From a virus (Duplodnaviria; Heunggongvirae; Uroviricota; Caudoviricetes): a stretch of 9,195 nt of DNA. How positions within the stretch are numbered: position 1 is the stretch's first letter; each line of letters begins with the position of its first letter. The position numbers were made by a program, and so were the translations under genes. Positions 1,592 through 4,535 of the stretch are shown here, piece by piece. The stretch spans positions 1 to 9,195 of IMG/VR virus record IMGVR_UViG_3300010279_000202; one strand, given 5' to 3'. The notes under the pieces were generated by a model. The model did not search any database. It had not been told where the DNA came from and was given only the letters and a program-made list of their open reading frames with translations.

Positions 1592-1981
1592 TTAAATAAC
1601 CGGACAATCATCAAATTCCCCACTTCGGGCATCATTGATGACATGAGTGATCACACCAAAAACAGCATTACTGCCCGTGTATCCATCGTCATCTACTGGT
1701 AACGCCTCTTTCTTCCCGGTGCTTAAATCCTCCAGGTGCTGGCGCGGATACTTCCTGTATCTCTTTATGCGATATTCACCCTCCATAGCGCACACAAGCA
1801 GAGAACCATCAACCGGAGTAAGCGAGGAATCAACCACCAGCAAAGCACCCTGCAATATTCCCTCACGGTGATGGCTATCAGCTGCCCGCATGAAGTAGGT
1901 TGCTGATGGATGCCTGATTAGTTGCTGATCAAGAGAAATTCGGCTTTCAACATAATCCGCCGCAGGAGAAGGGAAGCCCAT
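1592..1981 (-). CDS. humD: HumD, UmuD'-like translesion-synthesis accessory protein (S24 LexA-type fold)
   Basis: 129-aa ORF starting MGFPSPAADYVE..., resembling the N-terminus of processed UmuD'. GAGGTG SD about 9 nt upstream of the ATG at 1981; LexA box 22 nt further upstream; lies directly upstream of phd-doc as in P1. Confidence 0.85.
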   Translation of the reverse strand: MGFPSPAADYVESRISLDQQLIRHPSATYFMRAADSHHREGILQGALLVVDSSLTPVDGSLLVCAMEGEYRIKRYRKYPRQHLEDLSTGKKEALPVDDDGYTGSNAVFGVITHVINDARSGEFDDCPVI

Positions 1982-2155: not shown

Positions 2156-2740
2156 ATGCCTAATCGCATTCCTCTCGATCCTGTATTGCCCAAAAATTTT
2201 GACTGCACTCCTAACGAGAAACGCTCTAAAGCTCAGCTGGACGCCTGGTGGGACCATCCATATGGGGTTACACAACCTGACGGGAAAATTGTAGTTTATT
2301 GTCTGAATGGTGGGGCGTGGGACCGTCCATCCGTGCTTTGTTTGGCAGATAACTATGATGAAGCCTGTGAACTTGCCGAAAGACAGCAGGCAAGCTGGGT
2401 AAAAACACGGTCTGAACCGACATTCATGTTTTCAAAAGAACCGCCATTTATACTGGCGAGGATGCCGCAGCGACCGGATCATCAACAAGAAATTGTTGCT
2501 GAATTTTCCTCAAGGGATGAGATAAATCTCTTCTCATTAAAGCAGGAAGAAAGGGATCGCGTCGAAGTGTCTCCAACTCTCGACCACAACCGGATGAACC
2601 TGGCCCAGCTCGCCTGGTACAGCAAAGAATTAGAGATGTCTATTGCCCGGCTTGAAAACGAAAAAGCCGCTATCCAAGTCCAGCACGAAGTAGTTCTGAA
2701 CCGGATTAGAGAAATGCAAAACGATAACAGGGGATTTTGA
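2156..2740 (+). CDS. Hypothetical protein, 194 aa (N-terminal globular region plus C-terminal predicted coiled coil)
   Basis: Long ORF with AAGGAA SD 7-12 nt upstream of the ATG; stop TGA at 2738-2740 abuts the next ATG. No antisense ORF of at least 60 aa spans it. No catalytic motif recognised. Confidence 0.75.
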   Translation: MPNRIPLDPVLPKNFDCTPNEKRSKAQLDAWWDHPYGVTQPDGKIVVYCLNGGAWDRPSVLCLADNYDEACELAERQQASWVKTRSEPTFMFSKEPPFILARMPQRPDHQQEIVAEFSSRDEINLFSLKQEERDRVEVSPTLDHNRMNLAQLAWYSKELEMSIARLENEKAAIQVQHEVVLNRIREMQNDNRGF

Positions 2741-3097
2741 ATGGCTAAAATCGAGTACCATCGTGATCGCGGTAATTACCTGGAAATATACGATCATGAA
2801 TCTCTTAACGATATCAACGATGCGTTATATGAATACTGTGAAAAAACGAGCATCACAGATGCACCTGATGCATTTGTCGAGCTGCCGGTATATCTCCGCG
2901 ACATCTATGCAATACGAACACCGCCCGTATCGGTGATTCACATTGGCTATGTCCGCCTGTCCATCGAAGAAGATGAAGATCGTTATATCGTGCGCCACTA
3001 TACATTGGACAGAAAAGAACTTCCTAATGAATGGAACATGAGTAATTTCTACAACGGTGAATATGGCTTAAAATCCGCTAATAATTTACGGTCATAA
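2741..3097 (+). CDS. Hypothetical acidic protein, 118 aa
   Basis: ATG directly follows the upstream TGA (TGAATG), with AGGGGA SD inside the end of the upstream gene, indicating translational coupling. Product has net negative charge (about 23 D/E versus 13 K/R). No recognisable motif. Confidence 0.75.
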   Translation: MAKIEYHRDRGNYLEIYDHESLNDINDALYEYCEKTSITDAPDAFVELPVYLRDIYAIRTPPVSVIHIGYVRLSIEEDEDRYIVRHYTLDRKELPNEWNMSNFYNGEYGLKSANNLRS

Positions 3098-3186
3098 TCT
3101 ATACAGGCATGTATAACAACAACGAGCCTATTAGCTGTCAACAACGTTATTTCCTCAAATAAGAAAAAGCAGAAAACAAATTGTTT

Positions 3187-3207
3187 AAGGTCACAAATTG
3201 TGGCCTT
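3187..3207. other. Hairpin: 9-bp stem (one U-G wobble) with 3-nt loop, flanked by the palindrome AAACAAATTGTTT
   Basis: AAGGTCACA-AAT-TGTGGCCTT. On the minus strand the stem is followed by AAACAATTTGTTTTCTGCTTTTTC, so it could terminate leftward transcripts, but the T-run is not immediately adjacent. Confidence 0.3.
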
Positions 3208-3856
3208 GATGGAGGAGGGAGGCTTATTGGCTATGGCTAAAAATCAAATTAGACACTTCATGTTGCTGTAGCTCATCAAGATCCGAGGCCACAAAACCTT
3301 TTCCGAAAAACTTCACAAGTAACTCACTAGCCGCATCATTGTCACCTATTACACGAAAGTCATACGGCAACGTCGCAAGTTGACGATGTAATCCTGCTGA
3401 GAAAGTCGAATCTAACAGCGCCCAGAATTCCCACCGCAGGATAATACTCGCCTCTTAATACTGTATATATGTTGTTACGATATGTTTTTCTGTCTCTAAA
3501 AAAAGATGTTAATAGAATGCTAACCATTGAAGTGGATAAAAATATACAATTCCAACAAACGTTATTTTTAACAATTTTTTTCTTTGCGTTGACTTTCCCG
3601 GACACCTTGTCTGACCGAAGGTGCGCGAAAGCCACTTTTTCCTTCCTGAGTTATCCACAAAGTTATGCACTTGCAAGAGGGCCATTTTCTACATATTGTG
3701 GTGGCTAACAGATGAAATGAATGTAGATTAATTGAAGATAAGGAGAAAATTTGAGATGCAATCATGACGTTAATAGATAGGGTCTGCATTACAGACCCCA
3801 CCCGCATCAAGGAATTAGCCGTTCCCTGATGTTTTTCCGAAAACATGTGCCGTAAG

Positions 3857-3923
3857 CTCACGTTAACGACTTTCATTCACCGAATCCAACTATATAGGGG
3901 TTGGGTTTCTACGTCAACGTGAG
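3857..3923. promoter_or_regulatory. Inverted-repeat pair: 13-bp arms (12/13 match) separated by about 41 bp; candidate operator
   Basis: Left arm CTCACGTTAACGA (3857-3869); reverse complement of right arm (3911-3923) is CTCACGTTGACGT. The arms flank an AT-rich spacer with TATATA (3891-3896) and lie about 40 bp upstream of the small ORF at 3960. Confidence 0.35.
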
Positions 3924-3959
3924 CAAGTGCACCTTTACATTTGACAAGGAACCACCTGA

Positions 3960-4097
3960 ATGAACGCTTTTTTTCAGTTCCTGAGTGCATTTTTAGATGC
4001 GCCTATTATTAGCCAGATTCTGGCTATTATCCTCATCATCGTTTTGATTTTGCTTTTAAGGTCAGTAAAAAATGGAATTATGCACTGGCTTACTTAA
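3960..4097 (+). CDS. Small hydrophobic (single-TM-like) protein, 45 aa
   Basis: ATG at 3960 with AAGGAA SD 9-14 nt upstream; product MNAFFQFLSAFLDAPIISQILAIILIIVLILLLRSVKNGIMHWLT has an uninterrupted hydrophobic core and basic tail. Stop is embedded in the palindrome ATGTTTCAGTGAAACAT. Below the track's size cutoff. Confidence 0.35.
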   Translation: MNAFFQFLSAFLDAPIISQILAIILIIVLILLLRSVKNGIMHWLT

Positions 4098-4172
4098 TGT
4101 TTCAGTGAAACATTAAAATCTCCTTGATGTGGAAACAATCATTTTCTGTATGTGCTGGTGGGCACCTGTAGT

Positions 4173-4535
4173 TCAGCTTTCGTTGGCATTTAACTTCGTC
4201 TTTGCTTTCTCCACCAGCAACTTCCAGATGCCTATTTCATTAGCAGCCGCCTTGATGGCGGCATAAAAAGCATCTTGCTGATCGTAACGCTGGATCTGTT
4301 TTTTCAGTTTTGCCTCCACCAATTTAATTTCATTACGTGCTTTCTGAAGCCGCATCACCGCCCGGTTACGTCTGTTCTTGTATAGCGTGTTAATCTCTGA
4401 CAATTGCTTTAATTTACCAGCCTGACTGTGGATTATCGCCTCCCTGGCTTCTGCCGTGCGTCTCATCTGATCTCTTAAGAGTTCACCGTTTTCGATAATT
4501 CTTTCAAGGTGTTTGATGTGATCTGCAACTCTCAT
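4173..4535 (-). CDS. Hypothetical coiled-coil protein, 120 aa
   Basis: ORF rich in heptad-like K/E/R/L/A/Q stretches; start ATG overlaps the upstream stop (ATGA at 4532-4535). Last gene of the minus-strand operon. Confidence 0.65.
   Translation of the reverse strand: MRVADHIKHLERIIENGELLRDQMRRTAEAREAIIHSQAGKLKQLSEINTLYKNRRNRAVMRLQKARNEIKLVEAKLKKQIQRYDQQDAFYAAIKAAANEIGIWKLLVEKAKTKLNANES

What the first reader, a model, noticed from the sequence alone, without database searches (positions are those of the whole stretch)
3098..4172. 1.07-kb AT-rich non-coding island at the convergence of two operons
Coding density collapses between the plus-strand operon and the minus-strand operon, and several 100-bp stretches are below about 30% GC. 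The island holds a 9-bp-stem hairpin (3187-3207), a 7-bp-stem hairpin GGGTCTG-CATTA-CAGACCC (3780-3798), an AT-rich hairpin (3830-3847), a 13-bp inverted-repeat pair (3857-3923) and the palindrome ATGTTTCAGTGAAACAT (about 4087-4103). No intrinsic terminator with an adjacent T-run is evident. It could encode sRNAs, a type I toxin-antitoxin, a replication or recombination site, or be a decayed remnant.
Basis: seen in the sequence. Interest (0 to 1): 0.6.

Follow-up and report, generated by a model that had tools for sequence, protein, structure and literature searches.

The report
Recombination seam hiding a small-peptide cassette
The "empty" AT-rich kilobase in this P1/P7-type phage-plasmid is half dead gene fragments and half a conserved cassette, in which a promoter copied from the host nrdA gene faces a 45-residue membrane peptide gene with an opposing promoter in its leader, a layout like a type I toxin-antitoxin but unproven.

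Summary
The window is a P7/SJ46-type P1-like phage-plasmid. The gap 3098-4172 is real, and NCBI's pipeline annotates nothing in it. It is not one element and not fully non-coding.

The left part (3098-3558) is recombination debris. It holds the last 65 codons of a Toprim/primase gene with that gene's hairpin, then a decayed LexA-box leader of a umuD-type gene. Phages PhiR41_1 and Cyrano carry the intact counterparts.

Bases 3559-3699 are about 97% identical to the E. coli nrdA upstream region. They include both DnaA boxes and a -35/-10 pair that points right.

Bases 3700-4163 form a self-contained cassette. Three plasmid classes with different flanks share it. Its leader is 89-94% conserved against a class that is 53-63% identical in the spacer segments between the cassette's conserved parts. 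A 45-codon hydrophobic ORF (3960-4097) is intact in 76 of 77 loci. An invariant minus-strand promoter sits inside the leader.

My best reading is a DnaA-box-driven small membrane-peptide gene under antisense control, a candidate type I toxin-antitoxin. Nothing shows transcription, translation or toxicity. No known family matches. Tests for conserved RNA structure were weak. Interest is moderate.

The parts
3098..3223 (.). Remnant of an intergenic region from a PhiR41_1-like phage-plasmid. It includes hairpin 3187-3207, which in PhiR41_1 lies just downstream of the minus-strand primase-like gene.
   Evidence: aligns with L005 from about 2924 to 3053, and the hairpin is kept there (GGCCACTAATTGTGGCC); gene context in PhiR41_1.
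3224..3421 (-). Pseudogene. It is the last 65 or so codons, plus the stop, of a Toprim/DNA-primase-like gene. The 5' part of the gene is missing, and an in-frame stop lies upstream.
   Evidence: translation; the intact 174-aa PhiR41_1 protein. PHROG 17952 'DNA primase' E 6.5e-39 and PHROG 849 E 1.4e-6; phage P7 carries IS903 inserted at about 3360 inside this remnant.
3441..3558 (.). AT-rich remnant of the upstream region of a umuD-type gene, as found in phage Cyrano. It has a degenerate LexA half box at 3459-3478 (TACTGTATATATGTTGTTAC). It holds most of the only stretch in the island below 30% GC (3450-3599).
   Evidence: window 3441-3675 is 82% identical to L063 2437-2687. Cyrano has an intact LexA box and the start codon of its gene there. 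GC 27%.
3559..3699 (+). Captured copy of the E. coli nrdA promoter region. DnaA boxes are TTATCCACA (3651-3659) and TTATGCACT (3663-3671). The -35 is TTGCAA (3671-3676), followed by a 17-nt spacer and the -10 TATTGT (3694-3699). The predicted start is about 3706-3708, reading rightwards.
   Evidence: bases 3600-3696 are 95-97% identical to the chromosome in all 5426 E. coli genomes, at ypaB upstream of nrdA; same orientation as nrdA, and homology from about 3559; the P1 record M95666 already annotates 'nrdA-like promoter' and 'dnaA box'; bases 3650-3676 are invariant in all three plasmid classes.
3706..3959 (+). Predicted leader of the ORF45 mRNA. It contains the SD AAGGAG (3740-3745), a mini-ORF ATG-CAA-TCA-TGA (3756-3767) overlapping the start of a 21-codon ORF (3764-3829), hairpin 3780-3798, hairpin 3807-3829, and a long hairpin 3852-3938 (outer arms 3856-3868 / 3912-3924, inner stem 3882-3891 / 3899-3908).
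   Evidence: identity to the third plasmid class is 0.89 for 3738-3829 and 0.94 for 3856-3924, against 0.53-0.63 for the spacers; a compensatory change at 3783/3795 (U-A to C-G); substitutions at 3875, 3897, 3898 and 3925-3932 fall in predicted loops or bulges. Transcription is inferred, not shown.
3960..4097 (+). ORF45: MNAFFQFLSAFLDAPIISQILAIILIIVLILLLRSVKNGIMHWLT. It is a small single-pass hydrophobic peptide with an SD at 3946-3951 (AAGGAA) nine nt before the ATG.
   Evidence: same length, start and stop in all classes, with no indel while both flanks have indels. The SD is kept (GAGGA in the third class); 76 of 77 complete loci keep 45 codons; its best 19-aa hydropathy window (3.10) is the highest among 178 stop-free stretches of the window; annotated as WP_000123562.1 on P1-type plasmids.
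4094..4116 (+). Perfect palindrome or hairpin overlapping the ORF45 stop codon (TTAATGTTTCA / TGAAACATTAA).
   Evidence: one compensatory pair (4101/4109, U-A to C-G) and one wobble change in the third class.
4139..4163 (+). 3' element complementary to the predicted 5' end of the mRNA (3708-3720 with 4139-4149), followed by GCTGGTGG (4154-4161), which can pair with CCACCAGC (4211-4218). Homology with the third plasmid class ends here.
   Evidence: a 17-bp 5'-3' helix in the third class (1 of 500 shuffles as good); 11 bp with a bulge in the window (6% of shuffles as good); pair 3720/4139 changes from A-U to G-C; the 3' hairpin folds in both classes with weak z-scores. This part is inferred and weak.
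3889..3917 (-). Sigma-70-like promoter on the minus strand: TTGACG, 17 nt, TATAGT (10 of 12 matches to consensus). Both hexamers are invariant in all classes. The predicted start is about 3881, reading leftwards, antisense to the leader.
   Evidence: invariance; the same site is annotated as the predicted promoter 'PupfN' in NC_005856.
3772..3881 (-). Predicted antisense RNA of about 110 nt, fully complementary to the ORF45 leader. It would end at the GGGGTCTG-TAATG-CAGACCC hairpin, which has only a poor U tail.
   Evidence: MFE -43.2 kcal/mol, z -5.2, 0 of 200 shuffles as stable. Both ends are inferred. No transcript data exist.

Best explanation
The island is a recombination seam with three layers.

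(1) Bases 3098-3558 are dead DNA. They hold the 3' end of a primase/Toprim gene with its hairpin, fused to a decayed LexA-box leader of a umuD-type gene. PhiR41_1- and Cyrano-like phage-plasmids carry the intact versions.

(2) Bases 3559-3699 are a copy of the host nrdA promoter with both DnaA boxes, pointing right.

(3) Bases 3700-4163 are an autonomous cassette that this promoter most likely transcribes into an mRNA of about 450 nt. The mRNA would have a long hairpin-rich leader and a 45-codon ORF for a single-pass hydrophobic peptide.

Inside the leader, an invariant sigma-70-type promoter fires the other way. It would make an RNA of about 110 nt that is perfectly complementary to the leader.

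I read this as a small membrane-peptide gene under antisense control, laid out like a type I toxin-antitoxin of the hok/sok, ldr/rdl or tisB/istR kind. The DnaA-box promoter would tie peptide expression to the host's replication state. The antisense RNA would keep the mRNA silent or unstable.

Shown: the homologies, the conservation pattern, the intact ORF and the promoter motifs. Inferred: both transcripts, translation, toxicity and the regulatory logic.
For: - Identity of the window and its gene map.
- Debris: primase remnant; PHROG 17952, E 6.5e-39; Cyrano umuD-leader homology, 82%.
- nrdA promoter capture. The -35 and the 17-nt spacing are kept. The hexamers match consensus as well as the authentic nrd promoter does (8 of 12 by my count of the sequences). 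Earlier annotation.
- Cassette autonomy. The same 3621-4163 block sits between hot and hsd genes in a third plasmid class. One search shows a natural chimera whose crossover lies inside the block.
- Conservation profile. The leader scores 0.89-0.94, ORF45 0.76 and the spacers 0.53-0.63.
- ORF45: no indel and the same start and stop in every class. Substitutions are conservative, the SD is kept, and 76 of 77 loci are intact. It is the most hydrophobic stretch in the window.
- Minus-strand ORFs upfM/upf91.3 and upfN/upf91.4 are broken by frameshifts and stops in the third class.
- The opposing promoter matches consensus at 10 of 12 positions and is invariant.
- The predicted antisense RNA is unusually stable.
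- Hairpins are enriched.
- Three compensatory pairs were found, and the 5'-3' pairing begins at the predicted start site.
- The module sits in 216 of 5426 complete E. coli genomes, and 222 of its 223 places are on plasmids.
Against: - No transcript, ribosome or toxicity data exist, and the literature searches found none.
- ORF45 matches no toxin family in Pfam, NCBIfam, PHROGs (best E 0.058) or PADLOC. HMMER against 1.84 billion representatives finds only its own variants.
- The profile comparison with Ldr gives a probability of only 8%.
- Selection on the peptide sequence is weak: 8 synonymous against 19 non-synonymous codon changes, and no third-position bias.
- Only three lineages exist. 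Structure-transfer tests that avoid circularity are not significant.
- A natural chimera breaks the 3720/4139 pair.
- Neither strand has a convincing terminator.
- The antisense RNA would not cover the ORF45 ribosome-binding site, and no complementarity in trans was found.
- In P1 and the third class, the minus-strand promoter also points at hot, which could explain its conservation.
- Deletions of upfM, upfN and upfO, which overlap the cassette, are reported as non-essential for lytic growth (PMC10695390). This is compatible with the model but does not support it.
Confidence: 0.45

Rival explanations
1. Plain moron. ORF45 is an ordinary accessory small membrane protein, for example one acting in exclusion, lysis timing or host modulation. 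It is expressed from the captured nrdA-type promoter and is not a toxin. The minus-strand promoter is simply the promoter for hot/upfN-type transcripts, as annotated 'PupfN', and any antisense effect is incidental.
For: The ORF and promoter evidence is the same as for the best explanation. The minus-strand promoter points through the DnaA boxes towards hot in P1 and the third class. ORF45 has no similarity to any toxin family. Small membrane proteins with no toxic role are common (general knowledge).
Against: The P7-type window has lost hot, yet both hexamers of the minus-strand promoter remain unchanged. The leader (0.89-0.94) is far better conserved than the ORF (0.76). That is expected if both strands are constrained there and is unusual for a simple 5' UTR.
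Confidence: 0.25
2. RNA or DNA element only. The conserved block 3738-3924 acts as a regulatory RNA on either strand, or as a protein-binding DNA site using the 13-nt inverted repeats 43 bp apart. ORF45 is not translated and stays open by chance.
For: The block is the best-conserved part of the island. ORF45 shows weak purifying selection, and I estimate roughly a 20% chance that it stayed stop-free by luck. Hairpins are enriched, and three compensatory pairs were found.
Against: ORF45 keeps its start, stop, length and SD across 24% nucleotide divergence, with no indel, while both flanks carry indels. It keeps an extreme transmembrane profile and a 12-residue N-terminal stretch in which 2 of 3 changes are silent. 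There is no Rfam hit. I saw no match to the C1 operator or LexA box consensus in the block, checked by eye only.
Confidence: 0.15
3. Pure debris. The whole island is non-functional leftover from recombination in a known variable region of P1-like plasmids.
For: The left part is demonstrably debris. The pmgT-humD region is one of eight hypervariable, low-GC regions of P1-like plasmids (PMC9603915). P7 tolerates IS903 in it.
Against: The 3621-4163 block is retained in three classes with different neighbours on both sides. It has sharply uneven conservation and an intact ORF in 76 of 77 loci.
Confidence: 0.08
4. The minus-strand ORFs annotated in phage P7 (upf91.7, upf91.6, upf91.4, upf91.3) and in P1 (upfM, upfN) are the real genes of the island.
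For: They are annotated in AF503408 and NC_005856. PHROG 31823 matches upfM, but that family is built from these same annotations.
Against: They overlap one another. Their boundaries differ between P1 and P7. upfM and upfN/upf91.4 carry frameshifts and stops in the third class. upf91.7 and upf91.6 run across the promoter copy and the debris. PGAP calls none of them.
Confidence: 0.03

Closest known systems
hok/sok-type type I toxin-antitoxin modules of plasmids and prophages
   Same: Both have a small hydrophobic peptide ORF behind a long structured leader. Both have an upstream strong SD with a tiny leader ORF, and an opposing promoter inside the leader that would give a short, fully complementary RNA upstream of the toxin start. 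Both show predicted pairing of the mRNA 5' end with a 3' element. Both are self-contained cassettes on a plasmid-like element.
   Different: ORF45 has no sequence similarity to Hok. No leader ORF overlaps ORF45 as mok overlaps hok. No clear terminators were found. Structure conservation is not statistically supported. Toxicity and post-segregational killing are untested.
ldr/rdl (and the Fst/Ldr toxin group)
   Same: In both, the peptide has about 12 N-terminal residues, then an acidic residue, an A-P motif and a hydrophobic helix ending in basic residues (ORF45 FLDAPIISQILA; Ldr HDLAAPILAGII). In both, the antisense RNA is encoded opposite the 5' leader.
   Different: ORF45 gets no Pfam Ldr_toxin or Fst_toxin hit even at E up to 10, whereas authentic Ldr sequences score 1e-24 or better. 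hhalign gives a probability of 8%. ORF45 is 10 residues longer. The resemblance is a lead only.
tisB/istR-1 and dinQ/agrB (stress-promoter-driven type I toxins of E. coli)
   Same: A hydrophobic peptide sits behind a long 5' UTR, and its promoter is wired to a DNA-metabolism signal. The gene lies among SOS genes; here those are humD, an lxr-like gene and the LexA box. The matching island of phage Cyrano has a sub-threshold AgrB hit and a 27-aa hydrophobic ORF.
   Different: The promoter here is an nrdA/DnaA-box type, not LexA-controlled. The antisense RNA is cis-overlapping, not divergent. There is no sequence or Rfam match in the window.
E. coli nrdAB promoter region (DnaA boxes just upstream of the -35)
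   Same: About 135 bp are 95-97% identical. This covers both DnaA boxes, the AT-rich upstream part, the -35 TTGCAA and the 17-nt spacer. The P1 records already note this.
   Different: The -10 is TATTGT instead of TATCTT. Everything downstream, which in E. coli includes the second NrdR box region and the nrdA leader, is replaced by phage sequence. NrdR control is therefore probably lost, which is an inference.

Membership tests
Type I toxin-antitoxin system (generic) | Small (under about 60 aa) hydrophobic peptide with a predicted transmembrane helix | tested here: met
   ORF45 is 45 aa with GRAVY 1.56. Its 19-aa window at residues 15-33 scores 3.10, the highest of 178 stop-free stretches in the window. 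The ORF is conserved in three classes.
Type I toxin-antitoxin system (generic) | Antisense RNA that base-pairs with the toxin mRNA | tested here: inconclusive
   An invariant minus-strand promoter motif (10 of 12 matches) lies inside the leader. The predicted 110-nt RNA is very stable. No transcript data exist, the terminator is poor, and the promoter could instead serve hot.
Type I toxin-antitoxin system (generic) | The peptide is toxic when expressed, and the RNA counteracts it | not testable with these tools
   This needs expression experiments. None were found in the literature.
Type I toxin-antitoxin system (generic) | Structured toxin mRNA that limits translation (sequestered SD, 5'-3' pairing) | tested here: inconclusive
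   A consensus fold pairs the SD region 3945-3949 with 4122-4126, and 3708-3720 with 4139-4149. It contains three compensatory pairs. Single-sequence folds transferred between classes are no better than controls.
Hok/Gef family | Sequence match to Hok-type toxins | tested here: not met
   No Pfam or NCBIfam hit.
Ldr / Fst toxin families | Match to Pfam PF13940 or PF13955 | tested here: not met
   No hit at E up to 10, while LdrA and LdrD score 1.7e-24 and 6.5e-27. hhalign probability is 8%.
E. coli nrdA-type DnaA-box promoter | Two DnaA boxes directly upstream of a TTGCAA -35, a 17-nt spacer and a -10, in the same orientation | tested here: met
   collinear, 95-97% identical, and every E. coli genome has the counterpart upstream of nrdA.
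E. coli nrdA-type DnaA-box promoter | Activity and regulation by DnaA | not testable with these tools
   This needs promoter fusions in dnaA mutants.
Replication origin (DnaA boxes plus an AT-rich unwinding element) | Origin-specific arrangement that is not explained otherwise | tested here: not met
   The AT-rich DNA and the boxes are a copy of the nrdA upstream region and of a umuD-type leader. No iterons or other direct repeats were found.
Known RNA families (Rfam 15) | Covariance-model match | tested here: not met
   No match at E up to 1 in the window, nor in the P1 and third-class loci.

The most novel reading that the evidence does not exclude
P1-family phage-plasmids carry a previously unrecognised type I toxin-antitoxin whose toxin promoter was copied from the host nrdA gene. 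Production of the membrane peptide would then be gated by DnaA and the host's replication state, linking prophage-plasmid maintenance, or a dormancy or abortive response, to host replication stress. The module sits beside the LexA-controlled humD and lxr genes. The same promoter copy also occurs in unrelated Cyrano-type phage-plasmids, next to what looks like another type I module.
Probability: 0.25. Interest if true: 0.65.

Novelty: new member of a known kind. Interest (0 to 1): 0.4.

Why it matters
P1 is a classic model phage and its relatives spread resistance genes, yet this region is still annotated with guessed ORFs on the wrong strand. Showing that half the island is debris corrects those annotations.

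The other half is a portable cassette: a host-derived DnaA-box promoter, a small membrane peptide gene and an opposing promoter. It gives a concrete, cheaply testable candidate for a second addiction or stress module in P1-like plasmids, beside phd-doc. It is also an example of a phage copying a host cell-cycle promoter.

If the peptide is not toxic, the result is simply a better map of a variable region.

Tried and rejected
- Rfam scans of the window and of related loci found nothing. The only exception was a sub-threshold AgrB hit in phage Cyrano.
- ORF45 has no significant hit in Pfam, NCBIfam, PHROGs or PADLOC.
- A word-indexed protein search and a full HMMER scan of 1.84 billion representatives found only ORF45's own variants, some with altered C-termini.
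- Two scans of the genome collection found nothing.
- Viral and metagenome scans found only the same three classes, so covariation power could not be raised.
- tblastn against phages and plasmids gave the same three classes.
- A distant blastn against E. coli genomes found no chromosomal paralogue of the cassette.
- The Ldr relationship is only a motif-level resemblance: hhalign probability is 8%.
- Global RNA-structure conservation could not be shown. The consensus fold looks good but is circular, and unbiased transfer tests are not significant.
- The antisense RNA has no complementarity in trans to the ORF45 start region.
- The second minus-strand promoter-like site (4105 to 4077, 'P1upfM') is not conserved in the third class.
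- The AT-rich hairpin 3829-3846 is not conserved in the third class.
- The terminator-like hit at 3985-4002 lies inside ORF45 and is probably chance.
- The origin-of-replication idea was rejected because the DnaA boxes belong to the nrdA promoter copy.
- The minus-strand upf ORFs were rejected.
- The plus-strand 79-aa ORF 3469-3708 (PHROG 28987) runs across the promoter copy and is probably spurious.
- The P1 genome paper was not available in the library.
Full report
**What the window is.** Megablast places the window in the P1 family of phage-plasmids. It is 99.7-99.8% identical to phage P7, Salmonella phage SJ46 and many 90-110 kb E. coli plasmids. Mapping the P7 record onto the window gives this order:
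- humD at 1592-1981, minus strand
- an lxr-like gene, upf94.2, at 2156-2740, plus strand
- upf93.6 at 2741-3097, plus strand
- the island
- pmgV at 4173-4535, minus strand, followed by the rest of a minus-strand operon

The two operons therefore converge, and the gap coordinates are exact. PGAP annotates nothing in the gap of a plasmid 99.8% identical to the window over 3000-4300. The 2004-era P7 and P1 records fill it with overlapping minus-strand "unknown protein function" ORFs: upf91.7.6.4 and .3 in P7, and upfM and upfN in P1.

**Checking the observation.**
- Island GC is 39.3% against 47.0% elsewhere. Only 3450-3599 is below 30%, at 27%.
The exception is the palindrome, which is at 4094-4116 and not about 4087-4103.
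- Perfect hairpins are clearly enriched: six hits, equal to four sites, against 0.55 expected, with 0 of 300 shuffles reaching that number. All of them lie in 3780-4117.
- No convincing intrinsic terminator was found.

**The left part is debris.**
- On the minus strand, 3224-3421 encodes the last 65 or so residues of a Toprim/primase-like protein. It matches PHROG 17952 'DNA primase' at E 6.5e-39. Phage PhiR41_1 has the intact 174-aa gene next to its umuD homologue.
- The alignment also covers that gene's downstream hairpin (window 3187-3207) and the intergenic DNA.
- Phage P7 itself has IS903 inserted at about 3360, inside this remnant.
- From 3441 to 3675 the window is 82% identical to phage Cyrano. 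There, the sequence is the upstream region of a umuD-like gene with a perfect LexA box. In the window the box has decayed to a half site (3459-3478) and the start codon is gone.

**A copy of the host nrdA promoter.**
- Bases 3600-3696 match the chromosome of all 5426 complete E. coli genomes at 95-97% identity. The match lies at ypaB, just upstream of nrdA and in the same orientation. Homology starts at about 3559.
- The copy includes the two DnaA boxes (3651-3659 and 3663-3671), the -35 TTGCAA (3671-3676) and a 17-nt spacer. The -10 is TATTGT (3694-3699) instead of TATCTT. Everything downstream is phage DNA.
- By my count of the sequences, the hexamers match consensus as well as the authentic nrd promoter does (8 of 12). 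That is below the cut-off of the scan.
- This capture is not new. The P1 record M95666 annotates an 'nrdA-like promoter' and a 'dnaA box', and NC_005856 notes the similarity.
- The core 3650-3676 is invariant in all plasmid classes.
- The promoter points right, away from hot, which P1 has and this window lacks.
- The DnaA boxes plus AT-rich DNA are therefore not an origin. They are a promoter copy.

**The right half is a conserved cassette.**
- A distant blastn search found a third class of P1-like plasmids, such as pRHB27-C04_2, that is about 81% identical over 3737-4163. In that class the block lies between hot and a type I restriction-modification operon instead of pmgV. P1 shares 3621-4300.
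- The same block thus survives with three different neighbourhoods. A natural chimera, pUTME-7-2, has its crossover inside the block.
- Conservation against the third class is very uneven:

| Segment | Identity |
|---|---|
| 3650-3700 | 0.88 |
| 3701-3737 | 0.53 |
| 3738-3829 | 0.89 |
| 3856-3924 | 0.94 |
| 3925-3959 | 0.63 |
| 3960-4097 | 0.76 |
| 4098-4138 | 0.59 |
| 4139-4163 | 0.84 |

- Scans of viral, genome and metagenome collections found only these three classes.
- The module is present in 216 of 5426 complete E. coli genomes, and 222 of its 223 places are on plasmids.

**ORF45.**
- The plus-strand ORF 3960-4097 encodes MNAFFQFLSAFLDAPIISQILAIILIIVLILLLRSVKNGIMHWLT.
- In the third class it has the same start, stop and length despite 33 nucleotide differences. 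It has no indel, while both flanks do. Its SD is kept (AAGGAA against GAGGA).
- Substitutions are mostly conservative, such as I/V, L/F and R/K. Codon statistics are weak, though: 8 synonymous against 19 non-synonymous changes, with no third-position bias.
- 76 of 77 complete loci keep the 45 codons. A few database variants have altered C-termini.
- Its transmembrane segment is the most hydrophobic stretch in any frame of the window.
- PGAP annotates the P1-type allele as hypothetical protein WP_000123562.1.
- In contrast, upfM/upf91.3 and upfN/upf91.4 are broken by frameshifts and stops in the third class.
- ORF45 matches no known family. A motif-level likeness to Ldr toxins (xDxAPxxxxIL) is not significant: hhalign gives 8%.

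**Leader and opposing promoter.**
- The leader has a strong SD (3740-3745) and a three-codon mini-ORF whose stop overlaps the start of a 21-codon ORF. In the third class the mini-ORF is a bare start-stop.
- It also has hairpins at 3780-3798 and 3807-3829, and a long hairpin at 3852-3938.
- Inside the best-conserved block lies a minus-strand TTGACG-17-TATAGT motif (3917 to 3889) with 10 of 12 consensus matches. Both hexamers are invariant. The P1 record annotates it as the predicted 'PupfN'.
- From about 3881 it would give an RNA fully complementary to the leader. The 110-nt stretch down to the 3780-3798 hairpin folds at -43.2 kcal/mol, with z = -5.2.

**RNA structure evidence is thin.**
- A consensus fold gives three compensatory pairs (3783/3795, 4101/4109, 3720/4139) and about a dozen wobble-compatible changes.
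- The 5' end predicted from the promoter pairs with 4139-4149. That helix is 17 bp in the third class (1 of 500 shuffles as good) and 11 bp with a bulge in the window (6% of shuffles as good).
- That fold was derived from the same sequences, so it is circular. When a single-sequence fold from one class is judged in the other, kept pairs are no more frequent than in controls.
- The natural chimera also breaks 3720/4139.
- I therefore treat individual hairpins as plausible and the global fold as unproven.

**Interpretation.** The anatomy is that of a type I toxin-antitoxin or a similar small-protein-plus-antisense module:
- a self-contained cassette with its own host-derived promoter
- a long, highly conserved leader
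- a small hydrophobic ORF
- an invariant promoter firing antisense within the leader

The leader being better conserved than the ORF is what one expects when both strands are constrained. The location fits too. The cassette lies in a hypervariable, low-GC accessory region (PMC9603915), next to LexA-controlled humD and the lxr-like gene and to the phd-doc addiction genes. The matching island of phage Cyrano has its own nrdA-like promoter, a sub-threshold AgrB (dinQ antitoxin) hit and a 27-aa hydrophobic ORF.

Against this reading:
- There are no expression or toxicity data.
- There is no family match.
- There are no clear terminators.
- The antisense RNA would not cover the ORF45 start.
- The minus-strand promoter could simply serve hot in P1.
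- Deletions of upfM, upfN and upfO are reported as non-essential for lytic growth (PMC10695390). That fits an accessory module but proves nothing.

**Verdict.** Part of the island is a decayed remnant and part is a candidate type I toxin-antitoxin. It is not an origin and not purely non-coding. The nrdA-like promoter and the ORF are already in public annotation. Reading them together as a regulated small-peptide cassette is new but unproven. I give 0.45 to the antisense-controlled peptide cassette, 0.25 to a plain small-membrane-protein moron, and the rest to the RNA/DNA-only and debris readings. Interest is moderate (0.4).

Noticed in passing
L063 (phage Cyrano) 2439-3239: The unannotated gap next to Cyrano's umuD-like gene has its own nrdA-like DnaA-box promoter. 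About 85 nt downstream lies a strong bidirectional terminator (2773-2800). The gap also has a sub-threshold Rfam AgrB hit on the minus strand (2767-2848, 27.6 bits against a gathering score of 40), a direct repeat TAAGTATCTGGCGACT (2838-2855 and 3010-3027), and a 27-aa hydrophobic ORF (3101-3184) with an SD and a terminator. It looks like a dinQ/agrB-style type I module. NCBIfam gave no hit.
   Followed up: partly
L082 (pUTME-7-2) against window 3837-3925: This plasmid is a natural chimera. It is P7-type to the left of about 3924 and third-class to the right (ORF45, 3' region, hsd genes). The crossover lies inside the invariant leader block and breaks the 3720/4139 covarying pair.
   Followed up: partly
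window about 3360 (L001 4362-5418): The reference phage P7 genome carries IS903 inserted inside the primase-gene remnant. This window is the uninterrupted form.
   Followed up: yes
window 3459-3478: A degenerate LexA half box (TACTGTATATATGTTGTTAC). Cyrano has a perfect box at the matching place, in front of its umuD-like gene. In the window the gene and its start codon are gone.
   Followed up: yes
window 3559-3693 against L002 (P1) and L006: The P7-type copy of the nrdA upstream region is about 97% identical to E. coli over about 135 bp. The P1 and third-class copies have diverged strongly upstream of the DnaA boxes. This suggests a more recent exchange with the host chromosome, or with a Cyrano-like element, in the P7-type lineage.
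   Followed up: partly
window 3889-3917 minus strand, and L002 / L006: In P1 and third-class plasmids the invariant minus-strand promoter points through the two DnaA boxes towards hot, the DNA polymerase III theta homologue. DnaA bound there could act as a roadblock on that transcript. This window has lost hot.
   Followed up: no
P0001-P0004, L081: Some database copies of ORF45 have changed C-termini, through frameshifts or an insertion junction (...VMTPTY), after about residues 31 to 39. The N-terminal and transmembrane parts are kept.
   Followed up: partly
window 3469-3708 plus strand; L063 2529-2771: PHROG 28987 (E 3.6e-22) is built on an ORF of about 80 aa that runs across the AT-rich DNA and the nrdA promoter copy. 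It is probably a family of spurious ORF calls. E. coli ypaB on the opposite strand covers the same promoter DNA.
   Followed up: partly
L006 3400-5421: In the third plasmid class a type I restriction-modification operon (hsdM, hsdS) replaces the pmgV side of the island. Homology to the window stops at 4163.
   Followed up: no
window 4154-4161 and 4211-4218; L006 2912-2951: GCTGGTGG can pair with CCACCAGC across the pmgV stop codon. The third class has an equivalent stem (CTGGTGAGC ... GCCCACCAG) around unrelated loop sequence, followed there by a U-rich tail. It may be the cassette's terminator, but the fold z-scores are weak (-1.3 to -2.1).
   Followed up: partly
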